From the NCBI GenBank assembly GCA_964413115.1, contig CAYPSQ010000002.1, positions 8,639-72,638 on the forward strand: 64,000 nucleotides of DNA, read 5' to 3'. Below, piece by piece: positions 4,635-51,587 of the stretch. Positions within the stretch are counted from its first letter, which is position 1, and every line of letters begins with the position of its first letter. The DNA comes from an uncultured Rhizobiaceae bacterium. GTDB taxonomy: Bacteria > Pseudomonadota > Alphaproteobacteria > UBA828. The notes beneath the pieces are model-generated. The model was not told the origin of the DNA, ran no database searches, and saw only the letters and a program-made list of their open reading frames with translations. The translations under genes and the position numbers were made by a program.

Positions 4635-5305
4635 ATGCATTAAGCGATCTTCCGGCGACAAGTTGGTGGTGGGTGCGCCATGCGCCGGTCACCACCCATC
4701 ACGGCCGGCTTTATGGCCAGTCTGATGTGCCGGCCAACACCGAAGACAGCGAAGCCTTCAAAGGCTTGGCCGAGCAATTGCCGAAAGGCGCGCTTTGGAT
4801 AACTAGTCATCTGCAGCGCACCCATCAGACCGCAAACGCCATCGTTGAAGCTGGCCATGCGGCGGAAAAGCCGCTGATCGAGGAAGATCTGGCGGAACAG
4901 AGTTTCGGCGATTGGCAGGGCTTGAGCTATGCCGAGGTCGAAGCCGAGCGGGCGGGGGCGGGTCATCCTTTTTGGATTGCACCGGCGGATTTTGCCGCGC
5001 CCAACGGCGAAAGTTTCGCTGCCGTCATGACGCGCGTGTCTAAAACGATCTCACGCCTCAGCACACACCATACAGGGCGCGATATCGTCGCCGTCGCGCA
5101 TGGCGGCTCGATCCGGGCGGCACTTGGCCATGCGCTCGGCATCGCACCAAATCAAGCGCTTTCCTTCACCATCGATAACCTTTCGATCACACGAATCGAC
5201 TGTTTCCACGGCGCGGACGGGCGTCAGGATTGGTGCGTGATCGGCGTCAATCTGCCGCCTAGTAAAAGCGCTGCGCATGGGGTAGTTTTCCCCCCAAGAC
5301 GCTGA
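4631..5305 (+). CDS. cobC: Alpha-ribazole-5'-phosphate phosphatase (histidine phosphatase family)
   Basis: RHAPV...HGRLYGQSD (RHG catalytic motif) and a downstream AHGGSIRA His motif. Overlaps cobS stop by 4 nt. Confidence 0.8.
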   Translation: MNALSDLPATSWWWVRHAPVTTHHGRLYGQSDVPANTEDSEAFKGLAEQLPKGALWITSHLQRTHQTANAIVEAGHAAEKPLIEEDLAEQSFGDWQGLSYAEVEAERAGAGHPFWIAPADFAAPNGESFAAVMTRVSKTISRLSTHHTGRDIVAVAHGGSIRAALGHALGIAPNQALSFTIDNLSITRIDCFHGADGRQDWCVIGVNLPPSKSAAHGVVFPPRR

Positions 5306-5510
5306 GTCAGGGAAACCGGTGACGCGCTCCGTTCGGGAGCGTCAGGCCGGTGCTGCCCCCGCAACTGTAAACGGCGAGGTAGTCCCCTTTTGTGCGGGAT
5401 GTGTTCCGCACGCGCCACTGGCGGCGAAAGTCGCCGGGAAGGCGGGGGACTTGCCCTTGACCCGAAGCCAGGAGACCTCCTCGGCGTCGCCCCGGAACGG
5501 TCCTCGGAGG
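5296..5510 (+). promoter_or_regulatory. Cobalamin (AdoCbl) riboswitch in the 5' leader of the cobU operon
   Basis: GGGAAACCGGTGA at 5310-5322, GCTGCCCCCGCAACTGTAA, and the B12-box AAGCCAGGAGACCTCC at 5465-5480. A ~200-nt leader between cobC stop and cobU start. Confidence 0.85.
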
Positions 5511-5514
5511 GAGG

Positions 5515-6048
5515 ATGATGCCGCTTTCGACGGACACGGCACGTACGACATTGGTGATCGGCGGCGCTCGCTCGGGCAAAAGCCGCTACGCCGAACAGCT
5601 GTTGGCCGCGCATGACGGAACCCGCATTTACATCGCCACGGCTGAAGCCGGTGATGCGGAAATGGCGGCGCGCATCGCCGCACATCAAGCACGCCGTGGC
5701 GCCGGTTGGCGGACGATCGAGCAGCCGCTCGATCTAGTGACGGCGCTGGAGACCCATTGCCGCCCTGCCGGCGCGGTGCTGGTTGATTGTCTGACCCTGT
5801 GGCTGAGCAATTTAATGGCGGCGTCACGCGATATCGCGGCGGCAACCAGCCGGCTCGTGCGCGCTGTGCAGCGCCTGGAAGGGCGCACGGTGCTGGTGTC
5901 GAACGAAGTTGGCCTTGGCATCGTTCCCAACCATCCCCTCGGCCGTGAATTCCGCGACCATGCCGGGCGCCTCAATCAGGCAGTGGCCGCCGCCGTCGAC
6001 GAAGCGGTGTTCATCGCTGCCGGCCTGCCGCTTAGGCTGAAACCGTGA
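5515..6048 (+). CDS. cobU: Adenosylcobinamide kinase / adenosylcobinamide-phosphate guanylyltransferase
   Basis: P-loop LVIGGARSGKSRYAE. 177 aa, typical CobU/CobP size. Confidence 0.9.
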   Translation: MMPLSTDTARTTLVIGGARSGKSRYAEQLLAAHDGTRIYIATAEAGDAEMAARIAAHQARRGAGWRTIEQPLDLVTALETHCRPAGAVLVDCLTLWLSNLMAASRDIAAATSRLVRAVQRLEGRTVLVSNEVGLGIVPNHPLGREFRDHAGRLNQAVAAAVDEAVFIAAGLPLRLKP

Positions 6049-8068: not shown

Positions 8069-11000
8069 ATGCATCTGCTGGCGGCGCAACCGGGCGGCAT
8101 TGCCGATGGCAATGCGGCGGTCGATCTCGGTCAGAGTCCGGGCGATATCGTTTTCGCTTCCGCCGCCGACACTGAACTTGCTTGCCTGGCGCGCGCCCAC
8201 GCCTCTCTCGGCGATGCCGCTCCCAGCCTGCGCCTCGCCAATTTGATGAATCTCGGCCACAATTTGTCGGTCGATAATTGGCTGGACGCCACGGTCTCCG
8301 GCGCGCGTCTAGTGATCGTCCGCGTGCTCGGCGGGGAGAGTTATTGGCCCTATGGCGTCGAGCGTCTGGCGCAGCTGTGTCGCGACCAGAATATCGCCCT
8401 GGCACTCCTGCCCGGCGACGACAAGCCGGATAGTGAGCTCGCCCGGCGGGCCACCCTGCCGCCGGAAGCGTGTGAGCGGCTGTGGCGCTATTGCGTCCAT
8501 GGCGGCCTGGAGAACGCCACCGAATGCCTGCGCTATATCGCCGATCTAATCGGTGACACCACCCAGTGGCGCGAACCGGCGCCATTGGCCCGTGCCGGGC
8601 TTTATCGGACAGGCGCACGGCAGGTTGATCTCGACGAAATCGCGGCGGCGCAAAGGCGCGAGGATCGCCCATTCGCGCTGGTGCTGTTTTACCGCGCCCT
8701 GGTTCAAGCGGCGGACACCGCGCCAATTGATGATCTACTCGCGGCGCTCGAACAAAATGGGCTGGCCGCCGTTGGGTTGTTCGTTTCCAGCCTCAAAGAT
8801 CCACCCTCGGCGCGTTTTGTCGAAAGCGTGCTCGACGCATCGCGGCCCGACATCATCCTCAATGCCACCGGCTTCTCGGTGTCGCGCCCCGGCGTGATCG
8901 AAGCGAGCCCGCTCGACCGCGCGGGCGTGCCGGTCCTGCAAGTGGTGTTGGCGGGTGGCACCGAAGCCGCCTGGGTGGCGGGTACGCGCGGGCTCTCGGC
9001 GCGCGATATCGCGATGAATGTCGCCCTCCCCGAAGTCGATGGCCGCATCCTAACCCGTGCAGTATCGTTCAAGAGCGAACGCAGTTTTGATGCCGCGACC
9101 GAATGCGGCATTGTCGCCCACATGCCGCGCGCCGACCGCATCGATTTTGTCGCCCAGCTGGCGAAGAATTGGGCTCGCCTGGCCAGGACCGCCGCAAGCG
9201 AGCGCCGCGTCTGTGTGGTACTGGCCAACTATCCCAACAAAGACGGCCGTATCGGCAACGGCGTGGGCCTCGACACGCCGGCGAGCGCGGTGCGCTTACT
9301 CGCCGCCCTGCAGGCAGAAGGCTACAGTTTGGATGGGCTCCCCGCTGACGGTGCGGCGCTGATGGCAGCGCTGCAGGCCGGCCCGACCAACGCCCTATCG
9401 ACTTATGCTAAATCGACCGGCGGCGCGCGTTTCAGTCTGGACGACTATCAGGATTTTCTCTCGGGTTTGGACAGCCATGCAAGGTTGCGCGTCGCCGAAC
9501 GTTGGGGCGCGGCAGAATCCGATCCTTTCTTTCGCCCGGAGTATAATTCCTTCGTCCTACCGGTGCTGTCGTTCGGCAATGTGATCGTGGCGATCCAGCC
9601 GGCGCGTGGCTACAACATTGATCCCGCCGCCAGCTATCACGACTCCGACTTGCCGCCGCCGCACGGTTATCTTGCGTTCTATGCCTGGCTGCGCCGCGCG
9701 TTCGATGCCCATGCCGTGCTCCATCTCGGTAAGCATGGCAACCTCGAATGGTTGCCGGGTAAGGCTTTGGCGCTTTCCGCCGCCTGCTTCCCCGAAGCAG
9801 CGCTCGGGCCCCTGCCACATATCTATCCGTTTATCGTCAACGATCCGGGCGAAGGCAGCCAGGCCAAGCGGCGCAGCGCCGCGGTGATCATCGATCACCT
9901 GACACCGCCTCTCAGCCGCGCCGAAAGCTACGGGCCGTTGCGTGAATTAGAAGCGATGGTCGATGAATATTATGAGGCCAGCCAACTGGACCCGCGGCGC
10001 TGTCCACCCCTGGCCGAGCGTATCCTGGAGTTGGCGCGCAGCGAAGGCATCGATTTGGATTGCGGTATCGCACCCGATGATGGCCGCGCACAAGCCTTGA
10101 CCAAGCTCGATGGCTATATGTGCGAACTGAAGGAAATGCAGATTCGCAACGGCTTGCATATTTTTGGCGCGGCACCGGAAGGCGGGTTGCGCAGTGATCT
10201 GCTGTTGGCGATTGCGCGGAGCCCGCGCGGCACCAGCGCCGGCGACGCGTCATTGACGCGCGCCCTGGCCGCCGATCTCCGTCTTGATTTCGATCCGCTC
10301 GATTGCGACATGGCGGCGCCCTGGGACGGCGCGCGCCCGGACGCGCTGGCCGGTCCCGATGCATGGCGCAGCCATGGCGATAGCGTTGAGCGGCTGGAAG
10401 CGCTGGCACTTGCGTTGATTGCCGGTGAGCGTGTGGTGGAAGCGAATTGGTCGCGTACACATGATGTGTTGCAGGAAGTGCGCGAGCGCATCGCGCCGGC
10501 CCTAGATGCCAGTGGCGTAGGGGAGATTGCAGGTGTGGCGCTCGGCCTTGCCGGGCGCTTCGTGCGGCCGGGGCCGTCCGGCGCGCCGAGCCGCGGCCGA
10601 CCCGAGGTTCTGCCCACCGGGCGCAATTTCTATTCGCTCGATAGCCGCTCCGTGCCGACGCCGGCGGCCTGGCAATTGGGCTGGAAATCGGCTCAGCGTC
10701 TGGTCGAATATCATGCCCAACGACACGGCGATTGGCCAAGGCGCATGGCGCTCAGCGCTTGGGGCACCTCCAACATGCGCACCGGCGGTGATGATATTGC
10801 GCAAGCTCTGGCGCTGCTCGGCGTACGGCCGCGATGGGATGCCGCGAGCGGGCGGGTGATCGGTTTTGAAATCCTGCCGCTCTCGCTCATTGACCGCCCG
10901 CGCGTCGACGTGACCCTGCGCATTTCAGGATTCTTCCGCGATGCGTTTCCTGCCTTGATCGATCTCTTCGATTCGGCGGTCCGCGCCGTGGCGGCGCTGG

Positions 11001-11821
11001 AGGAAAGCGCCGAAGACAATCCACTCGCCGCCGATGTGAAGCGCGAAACATCAGCCTTGGTGGCGGCCGGGGAATCCTCGGAAGACGCGGCGCGCCGGGC
11101 CGGCTGGCGCGTATTCGGCTCCAAGCCGGGCGCCTATGGCGCTGGCTTGCAGGCTTTAATTGACGAAGGGGGCTGGCAGGGACCGGAGGATTTGGCCGAT
11201 GCCTATCTCGCTTGGGGAGGCTGGGCCTATGGTGCTGGCCGCGAAGGCGTAGCCGGGCGCGCCGATTTTGAGCGCCGCCTGAGCGCCGTCGAGGTGGTGG
11301 TGCAAAACCAAGACAACCGGGAGCATGACCTCTTGGACAGCGACGATTATTATCAATTCGAAGGCGGCCTCGCGGCGGCGGTGACGGCGCTCTCGGGGCG
11401 TGCCCCAGCGAGCTATCACAACGATCATTCGCTGCCCGAGAACCCAAAAATCCGCACCCTCGAAGAGGAGATCGGCCGCGTCGTGCGCGCCCGCGCGGTT
11501 AATCCCAAATGGCTCGCCGGCGTGATGCGGCACGGCTACAAAGGCGCCTTCGAAATCGCCGCCACGGTGGATTATTTGTTCGCCTTCGCCGCCACCACGG
11601 GCGCGGTCAAGGATCACCATTTGGATGCCGTGTTCGATGCCTATATCGCCGACGACAATGTGCGCGAATTCATGGCCAGCGCCAATCCGGCGGCTCTGGC
11701 GGAGACGGCGGCACGGCTCGGCGAAGCGCTCCGCCGCGGTCTGTGGAAGCCGCGGTCCAACCGTGCGCATGATCTCTTGAGCAGTTTGAGCCAAGCGACA
11801 TATGGGGAGGCAGCGCAATGA
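8069..11821 (+). CDS. cobN: Cobaltochelatase large subunit CobN
   Basis: 1250 aa with end-to-end CobN family similarity. Confidence 0.92.
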   Translation: MHLLAAQPGGIADGNAAVDLGQSPGDIVFASAADTELACLARAHASLGDAAPSLRLANLMNLGHNLSVDNWLDATVSGARLVIVRVLGGESYWPYGVERLAQLCRDQNIALALLPGDDKPDSELARRATLPPEACERLWRYCVHGGLENATECLRYIADLIGDTTQWREPAPLARAGLYRTGARQVDLDEIAAAQRREDRPFALVLFYRALVQAADTAPIDDLLAALEQNGLAAVGLFVSSLKDPPSARFVESVLDASRPDIILNATGFSVSRPGVIEASPLDRAGVPVLQVVLAGGTEAAWVAGTRGLSARDIAMNVALPEVDGRILTRAVSFKSERSFDAATECGIVAHMPRADRIDFVAQLAKNWARLARTAASERRVCVVLANYPNKDGRIGNGVGLDTPASAVRLLAALQAEGYSLDGLPADGAALMAALQAGPTNALSTYAKSTGGARFSLDDYQDFLSGLDSHARLRVAERWGAAESDPFFRPEYNSFVLPVLSFGNVIVAIQPARGYNIDPAASYHDSDLPPPHGYLAFYAWLRRAFDAHAVLHLGKHGNLEWLPGKALALSAACFPEAALGPLPHIYPFIVNDPGEGSQAKRRSAAVIIDHLTPPLSRAESYGPLRELEAMVDEYYEASQLDPRRCPPLAERILELARSEGIDLDCGIAPDDGRAQALTKLDGYMCELKEMQIRNGLHIFGAAPEGGLRSDLLLAIARSPRGTSAGDASLTRALAADLRLDFDPLDCDMAAPWDGARPDALAGPDAWRSHGDSVERLEALALALIAGERVVEANWSRTHDVLQEVRERIAPALDASGVGEIAGVALGLAGRFVRPGPSGAPSRGRPEVLPTGRNFYSLDSRSVPTPAAWQLGWKSAQRLVEYHAQRHGDWPRRMALSAWGTSNMRTGGDDIAQALALLGVRPRWDAASGRVIGFEILPLSLIDRPRVDVTLRISGFFRDAFPALIDLFDSAVRAVAALEESAEDNPLAADVKRETSALVAAGESSEDAARRAGWRVFGSKPGAYGAGLQALIDEGGWQGPEDLADAYLAWGGWAYGAGREGVAGRADFERRLSAVEVVVQNQDNREHDLLDSDDYYQFEGGLAAAVTALSGRAPASYHNDHSLPENPKIRTLEEEIGRVVRARAVNPKWLAGVMRHGYKGAFEIAATVDYLFAFAATTGAVKDHHLDAVFDAYIADDNVREFMASANPAALAETAARLGEALRRGLWKPRSNRAHDLLSSLSQATYGEAAQ

Positions 11822-27879: not shown

Positions 27880-31570
<3,691 letters not shown>

Positions 31571-32692
31571 CTAAACCCGCATGGGCATGATGACATAAAC
31601 GGCGTTTTCATCTTCCGAATCGCGTACCAAGGTGGGCGACGCTGAATCCGCAAGATGAAATTCGATGGTTTCGCCTGCTATCTGTTTAGCCATATCGAGC
31701 ACATACCGGGAGTTGAAGCCAATATCTATTTTTTCCAAGTTGTACTGCGCGTCGAGTTCTTCCGACGCTGCACCTGCATCCGGACTAGTCGCCGACAAAG
31801 TCATTTGAGAGTCTTCGAGAGCGATTTTTATGGCCCGCGATTTCTCTGTCGAAATCGTCGAGACGCGATCGACCGCTTTTATGAAGGCCTGCTTGTCGAC
31901 GGTCATGATCTTATCGTTCGCCGACGGAATAACGCGCTCATAATCAGGAAAAGAGCCGTCGATCAATTTAGAAGTCAGGATCGCGCCATCGAAGGCGAAG
32001 CGGACCTTGCTATCTGAAAGTGCAATCATCACGTCACCATCGCTCTCATCGATCAGCTTTCGCAGTTCGGCCACGGTCTTACGTGGAATGATGACTCCGG
32101 GAATGTTTTCCGCACCCGCCGGTAAGGCGGTATCAACCCGCGCTAGGCGATGTCCATCCGTTGCCACGGCGCGCAAACACTTGGCGCCTTCGCCGTCCAC
32201 CGCATGCAAATATATGCCGTTCAAATAATATCGCGTTTCCTCAGTCGATATTGCGAAGCCGGTCTTGTCGATCAGACGCTTGAGATCGCTGGCAGAGATC
32301 GCAAATCGGTGGTCTAGCTCGCCCTCGGCCATGACCGGGAAATCTTCGACGGGTAGACACGCCAACATAAATCGCGAACGGCCCGAACAAATTTGCAACT
32401 TGCCGCCATCCTGGATCAATGAAATCTCGACTTGGGCGCCTTCGGCCAACTTGCGTACGATATCATACAACATTTGGGCAGATGTTGTTGTAGCACCGGA
32501 TTGCACCACATTTGCGGGCGCCGCTTCGATCACCGCCAGGTCCATGTCCGTGGCCGTCAGGTGTAACTTCTCATCGTCCCCTACATCGAGCCGGACATTA
32601 GAGAGAATTGGAATCGTGTTGCGTCTCTCGACGACGCTCTGAACATGCCCGAGGGACTTCAGCAGCGCACTCCGTTCAATGGTTAATTTCAT
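31571..32692 (-). CDS. dnaN: DNA polymerase III beta subunit (sliding clamp)
   Basis: MKLTIERSALLKSL N-terminus. 373 aa. Confidence 0.93.
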   Translation of the reverse strand: MKLTIERSALLKSLGHVQSVVERRNTIPILSNVRLDVGDDEKLHLTATDMDLAVIEAAPANVVQSGATTTSAQMLYDIVRKLAEGAQVEISLIQDGGKLQICSGRSRFMLACLPVEDFPVMAEGELDHRFAISASDLKRLIDKTGFAISTEETRYYLNGIYLHAVDGEGAKCLRAVATDGHRLARVDTALPAGAENIPGVIIPRKTVAELRKLIDESDGDVMIALSDSKVRFAFDGAILTSKLIDGSFPDYERVIPSANDKIMTVDKQAFIKAVDRVSTISTEKSRAIKIALEDSQMTLSATSPDAGAASEELDAQYNLEKIDIGFNSRYVLDMAKQIAGETIEFHLADSASPTLVRDSEDENAVYVIMPMRV

Positions 32693-32896
32693 AGCAATAC
32701 AATGCGTGTTATCGATTTAAAATCAGCTGGGCTTAGGTTCCGAATCCAGCCGTTCCGGCGTCATTCGAGTTGCAGCGAATCGGAACTTTAAAACCATGGT
32801 TAAATATAACAGATAGGGGTCAGATTCGGCACTAAAAACACGCGTTGAAGGTGCGCTGGGTCAGCCCTGGAAATAGCGTTCCAGGTGGCCGATTTT

Positions 32897-34333
32897 CTAG
32901 CTTTCGAGGGTGCGTTTGAGAAGTTCCACGTCTTCCGCGATGGCCGCGTCGCTGAGGCGCAACTCTTCGATCTTCCGCACCGCGTGCATGACGGTTGTAT
33001 GATCGCGTCCCCCGAACTTGCGACCGATTTCAGGCAGCGAGCGCGAAGTCAATTGCTTGCTTAGAAACATCGCCACTTGGCGCGGACGGGCGACCGCACG
33101 AGCGCGACGTTCGGACGACATTTCCGATAGTTTGATATTGTAATGCTCGGCCACCCGGCGCTGGATTTCCTCAATCGTGATGCGCCGCTCGCTTGCTCGT
33201 AACACGTCGCGCAGGACTTCTTTTGCCATTTCCAGATCGATTTGGCGCCCTACCAGGGTGGAATGGGCGGTCACCCGGTTGAGGGCCATTTCTAATTCTC
33301 GGATATTGCTAGTGATTCGCCGCGCCAGGAATTCCAACACGTCGCGGGGCACGTCGACAGAGCCGATCGTTTCAATTTTCGCCAGAAGAATGCCGAGCCG
33401 GAGCTCGTAGGTGGTGGCGTGAATATCCGCCACCAGCCCCCAGCCGAGACGGGAGCGCAAGCGTTCCTCCATGGCGTCGAGATCGGATGGCGACCGGTCA
33501 CCGGATATCACAACCTGCCGGTTGTGATCGATCAACACGTTGAATGTATGGAAGAACTCTTCCTGAGTACTGTCCTTTCCGCAGATGAATTGGACATCGT
33601 CAATCATCAAGACATCAGCGGAGCGGAACTGTTCCTTGAACTCCATGGTGTCTTTGTAGCGAACCGCCCGAACGAAGTGATACATAAACTTCTCGGCCGA
33701 TAGATAGAGCACCCTACGGCTCGGGTCGCGTTCGCGGATATGACGCGCCATGGCGTGCATAAGATGAGTCTTGCCGAGGCCGACGCCGCCATACAGATAA
33801 AGTGGGTTAAACGGCACCTTGTCCGCTTCGGCCACGCGGCGCGCTGCAGCATGCGCGAATTCATTAGGTTTGCCGACAACAAATTCCGAAAATCCGAATC
33901 GTGGGTTAAGCGGTGAAGAGAGGGTGTCGACTTCCTCTTCAATCGCACGCAGGTGTAGGAAAGAACCACGTCCCGGTGCTTCGTCCAGCACCGGGGTCGA
34001 TGAAGTCGGCCGCTGCGGATTGATTTTCTGCAGCGTGCCTAGAGCTGGCGAGATAGCACTAAAGGTGACCACCTCGATCGTTACGACGCGGACATCGGGG
34101 TTCATCTCATGCCACAATTCAGCAATGCGGTCGGCATAGCGGGCGCTCACCCAGTCGCGCAGAAATCGCGTTGGCGCCGCTACCAGGGCCTTGCCATTCT
34201 CAATGTGGCGCAGTTTCAGGGGCTTCAACCAGCTGCGAAAAGCGGCATCGCCCAACTCTTCTTGGAGGCGCGCGCGGATGGCGGACCATTGGGCTTCATG
34301 GGGCGGATACGCAGATTTAGTTGTATTCGGCAT
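32897..34333 (-). CDS. dnaA: Chromosomal replication initiator DnaA
   Basis: AAA+ Walker A GGVGLGKTHLMHA and C-terminal DnaA-box binding domain. 478 aa. Confidence 0.95.
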   Translation of the reverse strand: MPNTTKSAYPPHEAQWSAIRARLQEELGDAAFRSWLKPLKLRHIENGKALVAAPTRFLRDWVSARYADRIAELWHEMNPDVRVVTIEVVTFSAISPALGTLQKINPQRPTSSTPVLDEAPGRGSFLHLRAIEEEVDTLSSPLNPRFGFSEFVVGKPNEFAHAAARRVAEADKVPFNPLYLYGGVGLGKTHLMHAMARHIRERDPSRRVLYLSAEKFMYHFVRAVRYKDTMEFKEQFRSADVLMIDDVQFICGKDSTQEEFFHTFNVLIDHNRQVVISGDRSPSDLDAMEERLRSRLGWGLVADIHATTYELRLGILLAKIETIGSVDVPRDVLEFLARRITSNIRELEMALNRVTAHSTLVGRQIDLEMAKEVLRDVLRASERRITIEEIQRRVAEHYNIKLSEMSSERRARAVARPRQVAMFLSKQLTSRSLPEIGRKFGGRDHTTVMHAVRKIEELRLSDAAIAEDVELLKRTLES

Positions 34334-34336
34334 CTG

Positions 34337-34852
34337 CTAGCCTTGAACCCATGGCAGCGCATGCATTTTCCAGCCGGATATTGTGCCACGGTGTTTGTCC
34401 GCGTCTGGCACGCCTTCAAACCCTTCCATGATATTGTAACAATTAGCGAAACCTTCAGCCGTACAGTGTTCTGCCGCCGCTGCGGAGCGCGCGCCGCTAC
34501 GGCATATAAAAAGAGCTGGTGCTGAGGATGGAACGCCGGCGCGCGCCAGGTCGAACGCAAATTCGTGGTTTTGCGACATGTCCGGAAAGCGCTGCCAGGA
34601 AATCAGCATCGGTTCTTTATTCAGTGAGCTGAGCTCGGGCACACCGACAAAATTCCACTCAGCATCGGTGCGCACGTCTACAAGCACGGCGTTAGTGTCG
34701 TCCGCGAGAATCTGCCAAGCTTCGCCCGGCGTGACATCACCGGCATAAGAAAACCCGGGCGCAAGCCGTTCCTTGGCTGTGCGCCACAAGCTGTCCCAAT
34801 CGACTCCCACCGTTGCTCCAGGCGCAATATTATTGTTGGTTACACTGCTCAT
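34337..34852 (-). CDS. Single-domain rhodanese-like protein (putative sulfurtransferase)
   Basis: Rhodanese fold with active-site loop CRSGARS. Stop codon is one codon upstream of, and in frame with, the dnaA ATG. Confidence 0.75.
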   Translation of the reverse strand: MSSVTNNNIAPGATVGVDWDSLWRTAKERLAPGFSYAGDVTPGEAWQILADDTNAVLVDVRTDAEWNFVGVPELSSLNKEPMLISWQRFPDMSQNHEFAFDLARAGVPSSAPALFICRSGARSAAAAEHCTAEGFANCYNIMEGFEGVPDADKHRGTISGWKMHALPWVQG

Positions 34853-35151
34853 GTCTGCTGAAAATTGGCCAAATCTCCCCGTTTGCGGCGCCTATTTTTT
34901 TAGCGCACCGCAAATTTACCCTTCTAAATTTTGTTGCCCCGCCAAGTTTTTTGGCGAGTGATCTTAGAGTAATGGCGTGGTGAAGGACTGGCAACAGGTC
35001 CGAAATAGGAACGTCAAATTTATTTTGCGCTTTTTCATGTCGCCAGCGTGAGCCTCGAACTGAGCGGTTAAAGCTAAGCGATTGGACTCTCAGCACAAGC
35101 CGCGATTGCTGGGTAATTTAGAGCTCAGGCTGATAGCGCGGGAAATATGTC

Positions 35152-35195
35152 ACAGGAAAATTTTTTTGCCCGGCGATATTATCAGCGCGGGCGGT
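35152..35195 (-). terminator. Putative intrinsic terminator downstream of rpsT (weak stem GCCCG/CGGGC followed by an A7U4 run)
   Basis: Inverted repeat at 35168-35192, flanked by an A/T homopolymer run at 35154-35167. Confidence 0.35.
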
Positions 35196-35208
35196 AGTGT
35201 TTATAATA

Positions 35209-35472
35209 CTAACTGAGCGCCTTGATGCGTTTATTGAGGCGGGAGATACGCCGTGCGGCCATGTTTAGGTGTAACACGCCCTTGGTGACGCCACGCATGA
35301 TTTCCGGCTGAAACACCTTCAAGGCTTCTTGCGCCGCTGGCTTGTCGCCGCTTTGGATCGCGTGTTCGACGTTCTGCATATAGGTCCGAATCCGGCTCAT
35401 CCGCGTGCGGTTGATTTCCGTACTCTTTACCAGTTGCCGAATTCGTTTTTTGGCCTGCACGGTGTGCGCCAT
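35209..35472 (-). CDS. rpsT: 30S ribosomal protein S20
   Basis: [13 protein letters not shown]... 87 aa, basic. Typical S20. Confidence 0.92.
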
Positions 35473-36377: not shown

Positions 36378-36794
36378 TTATTGCGATGAATTGGGGGAAA
36401 GCACGAACCGAACCACCAGCAAGCGCCCTTCTGGAATGAGATCTATGCGTAACATCTCTCCTTCGCGCGAAAATACAAGCCCGTCGATGATATACCAGCC
36501 GAGTTCCGGCAATACGGCGCGGTAAAACGCGGCGGCATCTTCCGCCGTGATTTTGCCGTAAGCGTAGGTTTCGACAAGACGCCCGTCCGGTTTGTCGAAG
36601 TTGAGCGCTGGCGTTCTTTCTTCCGTAAGGCCACTCATCAAGGGGACTTCCTCGATGGCGATGAGAAACGCTGGGGGGTCGGTCGCGGTAAAGGCGACGG
36701 ATGGTGTGGCGACTAGCGAGACTGCTAAGAGACCAGCAGACAGCATAGTCCAACCCACTACAGCCCAACAAAATAGTAGCACGCGTCCGGGCAT
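36378..36794 (-). CDS. Hypothetical exported/membrane-anchored protein
   Basis: N-terminal hydrophobic segment followed by a ~100-aa soluble domain. Start placed at MPGRVLLF (36794) so that it abuts the fpg stop. The ORF track extends to 36881. Confidence 0.45.
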   Translation of the reverse strand: MPGRVLLFCWAVVGWTMLSAGLLAVSLVATPSVAFTATDPPAFLIAIEEVPLMSGLTEERTPALNFDKPDGRLVETYAYGKITAEDAAAFYRAVLPELGWYIIDGLVFSREGEMLRIDLIPEGRLLVVRFVLSPNSSQ

Positions 36795-37624
36795 CAGCAC
36801 TGACGTCTGGCGCAATAGAAGGTTGAGCGCCCGCTTTGCACGATGCGTTTTACTGCCTGTTCGCAATCGCATTTCGGGCACGGCTCCCCTTCGCGTCCAT
36901 AGACCGAGAATTGATGCTGAAAATAGCCTAATTCGCCGCTCGTTTGAACATAATCACGCAGCGAGGAGCCACCGGCCCGAAGCGCTCTATCGAGAACTTT
37001 ACGTATCGTCGCTACCAATCGTTCAGCACGAACACCCTGCACCGTATGGGCTGAGCGCCGCGGGCTGATGCCGGCACCGAACAGTGCCTCGCAAACATAA
37101 ATATTGCCGAGCCCGGCGACGACTCTCTGGTCCAACAGCGCCGCTTTAATGGGTGAATGCTTACCTGCCAACCGGGCTGCCAAACTGGGGCCATTGAACG
37201 CATTGCCGAGAGGATCAGGCCCCATTTTGGCGAGCAATCGATGGTCCTCCACCTCGGATTCTAGGCATATCGTCATCAGGCCGAAGCGGCGCGGATCGGT
37301 ATAGGTGACGATAGTGCCGTCGGCCATGCGGAAAACCACATGATCATGTGGCCCTTCTGGCAATGCGCCTGCTTCACCGAGGGTAAAGCGGCCCGACATG
37401 CCTAAATGGATGATCAGCACGTTCCTGTCATCAAGATAGGCGAGGATGTATTTACCGCGCCGCTCCAACCGTTCAATGCGCTGGCCCGTCATGCGCGTGG
37501 CAAAATTGTCCGGTAATGGGATGCGCAGGGTCTGCCGGCGCGTTTCGGCATAGGCGATGCGCTGGCCAAGAAGGCGCTTCTCCAGGCCGCGCCGGACCGT
37601 TTCCACTTCGGGCAATTCTGGCAT
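36794..37624 (-). CDS. fpg: Formamidopyrimidine-DNA glycosylase
   Basis: [15 protein letters not shown]-terminus (catalytic Pro2, Glu3). C-terminal zinc finger CPKCDCEQ. Confidence 0.93.
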
Positions 37625-50434: not shown

Positions 50435-50530
50435 CTCTCTTGCCAGTCTAGTTGGGTGTGGTGGAAGTCAGCGCAGCGGGGCTCCCGACGAAAACTGTCG
50501 GCAGCCCCGGCGCCATGTGCCTAGTCTCGA

Positions 50531-50947
50531 TTAAAGTGAATCGAGAGCTTGTTGGAAGCGGCCGGCGTGGGATTTCTCAGCCTTAGCGAGAGTTTCGAAC
50601 CAGTCAGCGATTTCATCGAAACCTTCATCGCGCGCGGTGCGCGCCATGCCGGGATACATATCAGTATATTCATGTGTCTCGCCGGCGACAGCAGCGGCGA
50701 GATTGTTTGACGTGTCACCAATCGGCAAGCCTGTGGCCGGATCTCCGGTTTCTACCAAATAATCTAGGTGGCCGTGTGCATGGCCGGTTTCACCCTCGGC
50801 GGTGGAGCGAAATACGGTCGATACATCGTTGAAACCTTCAACATCCGCCCGGCGCGCGAAATAGAGATAGCGCCTGTTCGCTTGACTTTCGCCCGCGAAA
50901 GCGTCTTTCAAATTTTGTTCGGTCTTGGAACCCTTCAATGCCGGCAT
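50531..50947 (-). CDS. Rubrerythrin-family diiron protein (ferritin-like domain only, no rubredoxin domain)
   Basis: [18 protein letters not shown] start typical of rubrerythrin, and the four E/ExxH diiron ligand helices. Confidence 0.85.
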
Positions 50948-51060
50948 CGGCTTCTCTCCTAATTTGTTTTTTTCGCTCAGCGACGACCGCGACGGTTATC
51001 CACCGCGGCACCATGCTAGGCAGCCTTTTATGCAGTAGGCGGGCAGCGCCGTCAAGTTCA

Positions 51061-51155: not shown

Positions 51156-51587
51156 TCACTGCGCGGCGGGCGCGCCGTTTCTGACACGAATAATTATGTC
51201 GATGCGCGAAATTTCGGCTCCTTCAGGGAGCGCAGGTAATTCGCCGATGGCGATATTATCGCCGGAGACGTCACGTAATTTTCCACTGTCCTCAAAATAC
51301 AGGTGGTGGTGGGCGCTGATATTAGTGTCGAAATAGGACCGACCGGCATCGACGACCAATTCCCGCAACAATCCCGCACTGGTGAATTGGTGCAGCGTGT
51401 TGTAGACGGTCGCGAGAGAGACACTGACCCCTTGGCCGAGCGATTCGGAGTGGAGCTGTTCGGCGGTGACGTGCCGGTCGTTGCCCGAAAACAGTTGCTG
51501 CGCCAGCGACCGGCGTTGACGCGTCGGCCGCAGTCCGGCATCGCGGAGCAACTCCATGATATCGTCTGATGTCACGTTCTGGCGCAT
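51156..51587 (-). CDS. irr: Fur-family iron response regulator Irr (heme-responsive)
   Basis: LRPTRQRRSLAQQLF ... VSLATVYNTLHQFTSAGLLRELVVDAGRSYFDTNISAHHHLYFEDSG closely parallels Bradyrhizobium Irr, including the HHH heme-regulatory motif. Confidence 0.8.
   Translation of the reverse strand: MRQNVTSDDIMELLRDAGLRPTRQRRSLAQQLFSGNDRHVTAEQLHSESLGQGVSVSLATVYNTLHQFTSAGLLRELVVDAGRSYFDTNISAHHHLYFEDSGKLRDVSGDNIAIGELPALPEGAEISRIDIIIRVRNGAPAAQ

What the first reader, a model, noticed from the sequence alone, without database searches (positions are those of the whole stretch)
34331..34852. Rhodanese ORF directly upstream of dnaA: stop codon one codon from, and in frame with, the dnaA ATG
In alphaproteobacteria dnaA usually follows rpsT with a long regulatory leader. 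Here a 171-aa rhodanese (active-site CRSGARS) is wedged in between. Its TAG stop is separated from the dnaA start by a single CAG codon in the same frame, so dnaA has no independent promoter or SD space and must be translationally coupled to, or read through from, the rhodanese. The implication is that a sulfurtransferase/redox-sensing domain gates expression of the replication initiator.
Basis: seen in the sequence. Interest (0 to 1): 0.5.

Follow-up and report, generated by a model that had tools for sequence, protein, structure and literature searches.

The report
Conserved rhodanese–dnaA coupled operon
In this marine alphaproteobacterium and many relatives, the gene for the replication initiator DnaA starts three bases after a small sulfurtransferase (rhodanese) gene and appears to share its promoter: an ordinary tightly packed operon in form, but an old, conserved and unexplained pairing of partners.

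Summary
On the minus strand the order is rpsT, a 356-bp spacer, a 171-aa rhodanese, TAG-CAG-ATG, then dnaA, dnaN, recF and gyrB. The arrangement is not a quirk of this genome. All 27 related loci in its clade keep stop-NNN-ATG. These give 21 distinct junctions that use all three stop codons and nine different spacer triplets. Eight more distant alphaproteobacterial lineages also place this rhodanese directly before dnaA, with ATGA overlaps, direct abutment, or gaps of 4 or 9 nt, and one with a longer or uncertain gap. Five lineages with the same synteny lack the rhodanese. A 20-nt promoter-region element found upstream of dnaA in three rhodanese-less relatives lies upstream of the rhodanese here. 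The rhodanese therefore sits inside the dnaA transcription unit. A Shine-Dalgarno-like AAGG lies in its last two codons, 7 nt before the dnaA ATG. Read-through or fusion is rejected: the frame relation is not conserved, the stop codon varies, and no fused protein was found among 5.8 billion. Nothing supports the idea that the rhodanese "gates" DnaA. No cysteine is conserved in DnaA, and tight junctions are the norm in this genome. The adjacency appears, unanalysed, in one published figure. The finding is real and conserved, and moderately interesting.

The parts
35209..35472 (-). rpsT (ribosomal protein S20), the gene upstream of the unit
   Evidence: PF01649 E=1.8e-25; TIGR00029 88 bits.
35060..35103 (-). 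Conserved 44-nt block in the rpsT-rhodanese spacer: GCGGCTTGTGCTGAGAGTCCAATCGCTTAGCTTTAACCGCTCAG. It contains a GANTC site (35085-35089). It may be a distal, methylation-sensitive promoter or a regulator site; that role is inferred.
   Evidence: The block is nearly invariant in 8 clade loci. The GANTC is kept even where N changes (GAGTC/GACTC).
34992..35011 (-). 20-nt element TTCCTATTTCGGACCTGTTG, which overlaps the -35 of the putative promoter. It is shared with relatives that lack the rhodanese.
   Evidence: It occurs once in the window (0.01 expected). It is found upstream of dnaA in the rhodanese-less loci L102, L104 and L105, and upstream of the rhodanese in L101, L103 and the clade.
34966..34994 (-). 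Putative sigma-70-type promoter of the rhodanese-dnaA unit: -35 TTGCCA (34994..34989), 17-nt variable spacer, -10 TACTCT (34971..34966). This is inferred; no transcript data exist.
   Evidence: The hexamers are conserved, the spacer is variable in sequence but constant in length, and the site is positionally conserved in the clade loci.
34853..34958 (-). Leader of about 105 nt. It carries hairpin 1 (34958..34938), hairpin 2 (34914..34882) and a conserved GGGGAG-TTTGGCC stretch (34884..34867). No Rfam family matches.
   Evidence: RNAalifold gives -23 kcal/mol, with 4 covarying pairs in hairpin 1. Rfam finds nothing here. Locus L084 has a 54-nt deletion that removes hairpin 2.
34337..34852 (-). 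Single-domain rhodanese-like sulfurtransferase gene, 171 aa from ATG 34852 (alternative start GTG 34810, 157 aa). Active-site Cys117 lies in CRSGAR. The stop is TAG at 34339..34337.
   Evidence: PF00581. PDB 2FSX at E=2.6e-37 and 8W14 at E=2.2e-22. AF2 model with pLDDT 90 and TM 0.93 to 2FSX. dN/dS is 0.11-0.24. C117 is invariant in 42 homologues.
34341..34344 (-). Shine-Dalgarno-like AAGG for dnaA, inside the last two rhodanese codons (Gln-Gly), 7 nt before the ATG.
   Evidence: The sequence is CA(A/G)(G/A)G(C/T) in all 21 distinct junctions.
34331..34339 (-). The junction TAG-CAG-ATG: rhodanese stop, 3-nt spacer, dnaA start.
   Evidence: Stop-NNN-ATG in 21 of 21 distinct junctions. Stops are TGA 12, TAA 6, TAG 3. 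There are 9 different spacer triplets.
32897..34333 (-). dnaA (478 aa), the downstream cistron.
   Evidence: TIGR00362 552 bits; PF11638, PF00308 and PF08299.
31571..32692 (-). dnaN, after a 204-bp spacer that holds three GANTC sites. It is followed by recF (abutting) and gyrB (8-nt overlap). This is context and is not claimed as part of the unit.
   Evidence: Pfam; GANTC list; junction distances.

Best explanation
The rhodanese gene is the promoter-proximal cistron of an old, vertically inherited rhodanese-dnaA operon. Transcription most likely starts at the ancestral dnaA promoter region, about 110-160 nt upstream of the rhodanese. That region is a conserved 20-nt element overlapping -35 TTGCCA, then 17 nt, then -10 TACTCT. 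The mRNA carries a structured leader of about 105 nt, the whole rhodanese ORF, and then dnaA. DnaA initiates at an ATG 3 nt past the rhodanese stop and uses a weak SD formed by the last two rhodanese codons. Ribosomes finishing the rhodanese are thus delivered directly onto the dnaA start, which is translational coupling by proximity or re-initiation. In effect the usually untranslated dnaA leader is occupied here by a translated sulfurtransferase cistron, so the two proteins are made from one message in a linked ratio. Shown: the anatomy, its conservation, purifying selection on the rhodanese, the position of the shared promoter element, and the absence of fusion. Inferred: the transcription start, co-transcription, and real dependence of DnaA translation on rhodanese translation. 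Unknown: why a sulfurtransferase is the partner.
For: (1) The same order mutM-ech-rpsT-rhodanese-dnaA-dnaN occurs in 7 genome loci and in all 20 metagenome loci retrieved with the DnaA N-terminus alone. (2) The junction length is invariant across 21 distinct sequences while the stop and spacer letters change. dS reaches about 2. In the same loci the neighbouring spacers vary: rpsT-rhodanese about 345-595 nt and dnaA-dnaN about 175-285 nt. (3) Eight more distant lineages (DnaA 57-72% identical) keep the rhodanese directly before dnaA. L103, L107 and L108 have ATGA overlaps. L101 has TAG|ATG. L109 and L110 have +4 gaps and L012 has +9. (4) dnaA-linked rhodaneses group together on a rhodanese tree. 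On a DnaA tree the rhodanese-less lineages are nested among the linked ones, which suggests ancestral linkage with at least 2 losses. (5) The 20-nt element plus -10 lies upstream of dnaA in the rhodanese-less L102, L104 and L105, and upstream of the rhodanese in linked loci. (6) No positionally conserved promoter-like site lies in the rhodanese body. The only such sites are at -121 and at codons 6-8. (7) An SD-like motif sits 7 nt before the ATG in all junctions. (8) The rhodanese is a real protein under purifying selection, with omega 0.11-0.24, an invariant catalytic Cys and a confident rhodanese fold.
Against: There are no transcript or ribosome data, so the promoter and co-transcription rest on conservation alone. 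The promoter scan used the E. coli consensus, and an atypical internal promoter could be missed. Because dnaA has its own SD, independent initiation is possible. No conserved RBS-occluding hairpin was found. RNAalifold gave -8.9 kcal/mol with 1 covarying pair, and RBS accessibility was 0.47 against 0.43 for shuffled flanks. Tight junctions are the rule in this genome (20 of 38 same-strand pairs), so the packing may reflect general compaction and not selected coupling. Five related lineages manage without the rhodanese. One linked lineage, L017, may have a gap of about 160 nt.
Confidence: 0.65

Rival explanations
1. Passenger gene. The rhodanese landed (or was retained) in the dnaA leader and simply rides on a well-regulated promoter. 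The tight junction reflects genome compaction and is then locked in because any change risks the essential dnaA. There is no functional link between sulfur transfer and replication.
For: Tight or overlapping junctions are the norm in this window. Five related lineages lack the rhodanese, with no remnant in the spacer. Homologues elsewhere sit next to sulfur-metabolism genes: an ABC transporter in L063 and a Cys/Met PLP enzyme in L111. No DnaA residue distinguishes linked from unlinked lineages, apart from one column in the variable domain II.
Against: The linkage persists across lineages whose DnaAs are only 57-72% identical, and the partner and its position are always the same. Neutral hitch-hiking is usually broken by rearrangement over such distances.
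Confidence: 0.4
2. Independent expression. dnaA has its own promoter inside the rhodanese coding sequence and its own SD, so the two genes are merely adjacent.
For: An SD-like motif precedes dnaA. Alphaproteobacterial promoters are hard to recognise by consensus. A conserved AATAAT/TATAAT-like hexamer lies at rhodanese codons 6-8.
Against: That hexamer is at the very 5' end of the ORF, so any transcript from it would still carry nearly the whole rhodanese. No positionally conserved promoter-like site lies in the remaining ~480 nt, and no promoter-sized block of suppressed synonymous variation was seen. The element shared with rhodanese-less relatives lies upstream of the rhodanese.
Confidence: 0.2
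3. The rhodanese protein senses sulfur or redox state and thereby gates DnaA production or activity, for example by persulfidating DnaA.
For: The only evidence is the conserved, exclusive pairing. The family includes proven sulfurtransferases, such as Ab-RLD (PMC10925157).
Against: Operon membership gives co-expression, not control. No cysteine is conserved in DnaA across linked lineages, and the L109 DnaA has none. The rhodanese has no DNA- or RNA-binding domain. No riboswitch or known RNA element lies in the leader.
Confidence: 0.1
4. Stop-codon read-through produces a rhodanese-DnaA fusion protein.
For: In this window and its clade the two ORFs are in frame and separated by one sense codon.
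Against: The stop is TGA, TAA or TAG with no common context. In L103, L107 and L108 the genes overlap out of frame (ATGA), and in L109 and L110 they are +4 apart. None of the 120 best DnaA homologues carries PF00581. A chimeric rhodanese-C-terminus plus DnaA-N-terminus query found no protein that covers both halves.
Confidence: 0.02

Closest known systems
Translationally coupled cistrons in bacterial operons (ATGA/TAATG overlaps or gaps of a few nt; termination-reinitiation, as classically described for trp and ribosomal-protein operons; from general knowledge)
   Same: The genes share a strand. The stop and start overlap or lie 0-9 nt apart. The SD is embedded in the end of the upstream gene. 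The geometry is conserved among orthologues.
   Different: The downstream partner is the replication initiator, which is normally a promoter-proximal gene with a long untranslated leader. Dependence of its translation on the upstream cistron has not been tested. No RBS-masking hairpin was found.
Caulobacter crescentus dnaA post-transcriptional control: a 155-nt 5' leader is required for nutrient-dependent down-regulation of DnaA translation (Leslie et al. 2015, PMC4489657), and there is N-terminal nascent-peptide control (Felletti et al. 2021, PMC8443254)
   Same: DnaA synthesis is governed by what lies between promoter and start codon. GANTC sites are depleted in the window, and one is conserved in the upstream region.
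   Different: Here about 520 nt of that interval is a translated, conserved enzyme gene. No sequence similarity of the leader to rhodanese-less relatives was found beyond the promoter element. No regulation has been shown.
Rv0390 / Ab-RLD family of single-domain rhodaneses with a CRSG/AxR active site (PDB 2FSX, 8W14; Benisch and Giessen 2024, PMC10925157)
   Same: About 50% identity to Rv0390 and TM 0.93. It shares the six-residue Cys loop and the C-terminal GW..LPW tail. An N-terminal helix (residues 19-28) resembles that of Ab-RLD. That paper's network figure already colours some members by a 'DnaA' neighbour and lists S20 in the neighbourhoods.
   Different: The characterised members sit next to sulfur-metabolism genes (OSHase, encapsulin/cysteine desulfurase). 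The paper states that no link to sulfur metabolism could be proposed for the clusters with varied neighbourhoods, and it does not analyse the DnaA junction.
Cdc25-type rhodanese-fold phosphatases (eukaryotic cell-cycle activators; from general knowledge)
   Same: A rhodanese fold associated with cell-cycle control.
   Different: Cdc25 and Acr2 have a seven-residue CX5R loop. This protein has the six-residue CX4R loop (CRSGAR) of sulfurtransferases, and its structural neighbours are all sulfurtransferase-type. The resemblance is only an analogy.

Membership tests
Rhodanese-like single-domain sulfurtransferase (PF00581; Rv0390/Ab-RLD subgroup) | Rhodanese domain above the curated score | tested here: met
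   PF00581 at 35.7 bits against a cut-off of 22.2.
Rhodanese-like single-domain sulfurtransferase (PF00581; Rv0390/Ab-RLD subgroup) | Catalytic Cys at the start of a six-residue loop (CRSG/AxR) | tested here: met
   C117-R-S-G-A-R. C117, R118 and R122 are invariant in 42 homologues and in 18 clade orthologues.
Rhodanese-like single-domain sulfurtransferase (PF00581; Rv0390/Ab-RLD subgroup) | Rhodanese alpha/beta fold | tested here: met
   AF2 model with pLDDT 90.1. Foldseek to 2FSX gives TM 0.93, rmsd 1.7 A and 50% identity; to 8W14 it gives TM 0.84-0.88.
Rhodanese-like single-domain sulfurtransferase (PF00581; Rv0390/Ab-RLD subgroup) | Sulfur-transfer activity (for example thiosulfate:cyanide) | not testable with these tools
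   Activity has been shown only for the relative Ab-RLD (PMC10925157).
Translationally coupled operon pair | Same strand, with stop and start overlapping or a few nt apart and no room for a terminator or promoter between them | tested here: met
   The gap is 3 nt here. In relatives it is -4, 0, +4 or +9.
Translationally coupled operon pair | Junction geometry conserved among orthologues despite sequence turnover | tested here: met
   21 of 21 distinct junctions have a 3-nt spacer, with 3 stop types and 9 spacer triplets. dS reaches about 2.
Translationally coupled operon pair | Co-transcription from an upstream promoter | tested here: inconclusive
   The conserved promoter element lies upstream, and no conserved promoter-like site lies in the ORF body. 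There are no RNA data.
Translationally coupled operon pair | Downstream translation depends on upstream translation | not testable with these tools
   This needs reporter or ribosome-profiling experiments.
Translationally coupled operon pair | Downstream RBS masked by mRNA structure (one subclass of coupling) | tested here: not met
   The consensus fold is weak (-8.9 kcal/mol). RBS accessibility is 0.47 against 0.43 for shuffled flanks.
Programmed stop-codon read-through / gene fusion | Conserved stop identity and context, conserved in-frame relation, and existence of fused homologues | tested here: not met
Cdc25/Acr2-type rhodanese-fold phosphatase | Seven-residue CX5R active-site loop | tested here: not met
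   The loop is CRSGAR (CX4R).
Chromosomal origin (oriC) or DnaA-box cluster at the locus | Cluster of DnaA boxes (TTATCCACA with at most 1 mismatch) | tested here: not met
   There are 6 matches in 64 kb (6.3 expected), and none lies between 30.2 and 45.4 kb.
Known riboswitch or cis-regulatory RNA in the leader | Match to an Rfam covariance model | tested here: not met
   No match in 34853-35208, even at E<=5.

The most novel reading that the evidence does not exclude
In a broad group of (mostly marine) alphaproteobacteria the untranslated dnaA leader has been replaced by a translated sulfurtransferase cistron. DnaA synthesis is then set by ribosome flux through that cistron. The rhodanese protein itself feeds sulfur or redox status into replication initiation. 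Together these would form a metabolic checkpoint on initiation that has not been described.
Probability: 0.15. Interest if true: 0.7.

Novelty: new variant of a known kind. Interest (0 to 1): 0.4.

Why it matters
How bacteria tie DnaA synthesis to physiology is still only partly understood. In Caulobacter the answer lies in the dnaA leader and the first codons. Here the same interval is filled by a conserved enzyme gene whose stop is packed against the dnaA start. This holds across lineages whose DnaAs are only 57-72% identical. If the coupling is real, DnaA output depends on translation of another gene. If the partner choice is functional, it points to an unstudied link between sulfur transfer and replication control. 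Even if the rhodanese is a passenger, annotators and people mapping dnaA promoters in these groups should look about 650 nt upstream of dnaA, not next to it. A relative in a described genus (Emcibacter) carries the same arrangement, so the question may be open to experiment.

Tried and rejected
Read-through or fusion is rejected.

An origin of replication at the locus is rejected. There is no DnaA-box cluster. The GC-skew sign change near 51 kb has the wrong polarity for an origin, and that region holds fur, what looks like a small minus-strand gene, and a CCG-domain protein gene.

CtrA boxes (TTAA-N7-TTAA) are absent from the window.

A riboswitch or known RNA in the leader was not found. A sub-threshold AsdA hit inside dnaA (29 bits against 52) reflects coding-sequence similarity.

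An RBS-masking hairpin at the junction is not supported.

I looked for an embedded promoter through suppressed synonymous variation. No promoter-sized block was seen, and the measure is biased where the amino acid varies.

Rhodanese remnants in the rpsT-dnaA spacers of rhodanese-less relatives were not found, so gain versus loss rests only on trees.

Leader similarity between this window and rhodanese-less relatives, beyond the promoter element, is not significant.

DnaA residues or cysteines specific to linked lineages were not found.

A single-sequence AF2 model was useless (pLDDT 33). The alignment-based model was used instead.

Literature searches for rhodanese together with dnaA found only the Benisch and Giessen figure legend.
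Full report
OBSERVATION

On the minus strand the window reads as follows. rpsT is at 35472..35209. A 356-bp spacer follows. A 171-aa ORF at 34852..34337 matches the rhodanese domain (PF00581, 35.7 bits against a cut-off of 22.2) and carries CRSGARS. Then come TAG (34339..34337), CAG, and the ATG of dnaA (34333), all in one frame. dnaA runs to 32897 (TIGR00362, 552 bits). It is followed by dnaN, recF and gyrB, and the unit is preceded by an enoyl-CoA hydratase gene and mutM. No other in-frame start codon lies between that ATG and DnaA domain I, so the dnaA start is secure.

IS THE RHODANESE A REAL GENE?

Yes. It is about 50% identical to M. tuberculosis Rv0390 (PDB 2FSX, E=2.6e-37). It is related to the biochemically confirmed sulfurtransferase Ab-RLD (8W14). 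An alignment-based AlphaFold model is confident (pLDDT 90) and superposes on 2FSX at TM 0.93. The catalytic Cys117 and the CX4R loop are invariant in 42 homologues. Within the clade dN/dS is 0.11-0.24. The loop length is that of sulfurtransferases, not of Cdc25-type phosphatases.

The first 14 residues are disordered in the model and show only weak codon periodicity. One subclade lacks the ATG and must start at the GTG of codon 15, so the N-terminus is uncertain.

HOW CONSERVED IS THE ARRANGEMENT?

A scan of one genome per species with the rhodanese gave 80 loci. Seven close relatives (marine MAGs; DnaA 84-89% identical, rhodanese 61-79%) have exactly the same gene order. A metagenome scan used only the first 130 residues of DnaA, so it was blind to the rhodanese. 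It returned 20 loci, and all 20 have the rhodanese directly upstream.

Across these loci there are 21 distinct junction sequences, and every one is stop-NNN-ATG. The stops are TGA 12 times, TAA 6 times and TAG 3 times. There are nine different spacer triplets. The last rhodanese codons always read CA(A/G)(G/A)G(C/T). This places an SD-like AAGG/AGGG 7 nt before the ATG.

Synonymous divergence in the clade reaches about 2 per site, and the neighbouring spacers vary by 100-250 nt. The fixed 3-nt spacing is therefore maintained by selection and not by recency.

BEYOND THE CLADE

I looked up the genomic context of DnaA and rhodanese homologues just outside the clade. Eight further lineages carry the rhodanese immediately before dnaA:
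- L103, L107 and L108 have a 4-nt ATGA overlap.
- L101 has the stop abutting the start.
- L109 and L110 have 4-nt gaps.
- Emcibacter sp. (L012) has a 9-nt gap.
- L017 has a longer or uncertain gap.

Five lineages with the same mutM-ech-rpsT-dnaA-dnaN synteny lack the rhodanese: L102, L104, L105, L106 and Oleisolibacter albus (L112). Their rpsT-dnaA spacers are 323 to about 730 bp.

The dnaA-linked rhodaneses cluster together on a rhodanese tree. They sit apart from the Acetobacteraceae homologues, which lie next to an ABC transporter, and from a Rhodospirillales homologue that lies next to a Cys/Met PLP enzyme. On a DnaA tree the rhodanese-less lineages are nested among linked ones. The simplest reading is an ancient linkage with at least two losses. 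That reading rests on single-gene neighbour-joining trees only.

WHERE IS THE PROMOTER?

The rpsT-rhodanese spacer contains strongly conserved blocks. One of them, TTCCTATTTCGGACCTGTTG at 35011..34992, overlaps a -35-like TTGCCA. It is followed by a 17-nt variable spacer and a -10-like TACTCT. This pattern of conserved hexamers and a variable spacer of fixed length is what a promoter looks like. The 20-nt element occurs once in the window (0.01 expected).

The same element occurs 200-300 nt upstream of dnaA in three rhodanese-less relatives, and upstream of the rhodanese in linked relatives. So the ancestral dnaA promoter region lies upstream of the rhodanese, and the rhodanese sits inside the dnaA transcription unit.

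A position-by-position scan of 16 gap-free orthologues found conserved promoter-like sites at only two places. One is this site. The other is an AATAAT/TATAAT-like hexamer at rhodanese codons 6-8, and none lies in the remaining ~480 nt. The leader has three predicted hairpins, the first with four covarying pairs, and no Rfam match.

MECHANISM

The best-supported picture is a bicistronic message on which DnaA initiation is physically packed against rhodanese termination. The variety of junctions in relatives (ATGA overlap, abutment, +3, +4, +9) is the classical repertoire of translational coupling. What is conserved is proximity, not reading frame.

I found no conserved hairpin that masks the dnaA RBS. 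Any coupling would therefore work by ribosome hand-over or re-initiation and not by unmasking. Because dnaA keeps a weak SD of its own, some independent initiation is possible.

The degree of dependence cannot be computed here. I put co-transcription at about 0.8 and true translational dependence at about 0.5-0.6.

WHAT IS NOT SUPPORTED

Read-through or fusion is rejected. The stop varies, the frame relation is not conserved, and none of the 120 best DnaA homologues carries a rhodanese domain. A chimeric query that spanned the junction found only stand-alone rhodaneses in a 5.8-billion-protein collection.

The idea that the rhodanese gates DnaA has no support. No cysteine is conserved in DnaA across linked lineages, and one linked DnaA has none. 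No DnaA residue separates linked from unlinked lineages. The rhodanese has no nucleic-acid-binding domain.

A 3-nt gap is also not special in this genome. About half of same-strand neighbours overlap or lie within 10 nt, including dnaN-recF (0 nt) and recF-gyrB (8-nt overlap).

COMPARISON WITH WHAT IS KNOWN

In form this is an ordinary translationally coupled operon pair. The unusual feature is the identity of the downstream gene. In Caulobacter, dnaA has a 155-nt untranslated leader that controls its translation in response to nutrients (PMC4489657). Its first codons add a second layer of control (PMC8443254). Here the corresponding interval is mostly a translated enzyme gene.

The adjacency has been seen before. 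Figure 1 of Benisch and Giessen 2024 (PMC10925157) colours some members of this rhodanese family by a DnaA neighbour and lists S20 in the neighbourhoods. The text says only that no link to sulfur metabolism could be proposed for those clusters. A search for papers that mention both rhodanese and dnaA found nothing else relevant. The conserved junction, the position of the promoter element and the phylogenetic spread appear not to have been described.

VERDICT

The feature is real and old. It is a new variant of a known kind: a translated cistron occupying the dnaA leader. Interest is moderate (0.4), because the form is ordinary and only the partnership is unexplained.

The most novel reading still open is that DnaA synthesis or activity is tied to sulfur or redox status through this cistron. 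I give it about 0.15 probability.

Noticed in passing
window 5261-5498 (+): A cobalamin riboswitch (RF00174, 82 bits, E=1e-18) lies directly upstream of a run of plus-strand ORFs that starts at 5515 and includes a 1250-aa ORF at 8069-11821. The ORFs were not annotated here.
   Followed up: no
whole window; 35085-35089; 32742-32827: GANTC sites are strongly depleted: 161 against 256 +/- 13 expected. One GANTC in the rpsT-rhodanese spacer is conserved across the clade even where its middle base changes. Three GANTC sites lie within 86 bp of the 204-bp dnaA-dnaN spacer. This would fit CcrM-type cell-cycle methylation control, but that was not tested.
   Followed up: partly
window 34992-35011 (-); also L101-L105: The 20-nt element TTCCTATTTCGGACCTGTTG is conserved upstream of the dnaA transcription unit in lineages with and without the rhodanese. 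It matches no DnaA-box or CtrA-box consensus. What binds it is unknown.
   Followed up: partly
window 36378-36881 (-): A small ORF between mutM and the enoyl-CoA hydratase gene has no Pfam match. A gene of 118-128 aa with no Pfam hit occupies the same position in L101, L104, L106, L107, L109 and L110, so it may be a conserved hypothetical gene; the sequences were not compared.
   Followed up: no
L084 (metagenome contig Ga0115002_10000723), leader upstream of the rhodanese: A natural 54-nt deletion removes leader hairpin 2 and keeps the promoter block, hairpin 1 and the GGGGAG-TTTGGCC stretch. This shows that hairpin 2 is dispensable.
   Followed up: no
L006, L007, L096 (rhodanese 5' end); window 34808-34852: One subclade lacks the rhodanese ATG and has an in-frame stop just upstream, so it must start at the GTG of codon 15 (preceded by GGAG). 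L093 lacks that GTG and needs the ATG. The start site therefore differs between close relatives. Residues 1-14 are disordered in the model.
   Followed up: partly
window 30365-32692 (-): The dnaN stop abuts the recF start (0 nt), and recF overlaps gyrB by 8 nt. The replication genes downstream of dnaA are packed as tightly as the rhodanese-dnaA junction.
   Followed up: no
window about 50-52 kb: Cumulative GC skew peaks near 51 kb (a + to - change), which is the polarity expected of a terminus and not of an origin. The region holds what looks like a small minus-strand gene (~50530-50948, read from the sequence only), fur (51156-51587) and a CCG-domain protein gene. This is probably a local gene-orientation effect in a short window.
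   Followed up: partly
window 33724-33793 (+): A sub-threshold Rfam match to AsdA (antisense RNA of dnaA mRNA; 29 bits against a 52-bit gathering score) lies inside the dnaA coding region. It most likely reflects conserved dnaA coding sequence.
   Followed up: no
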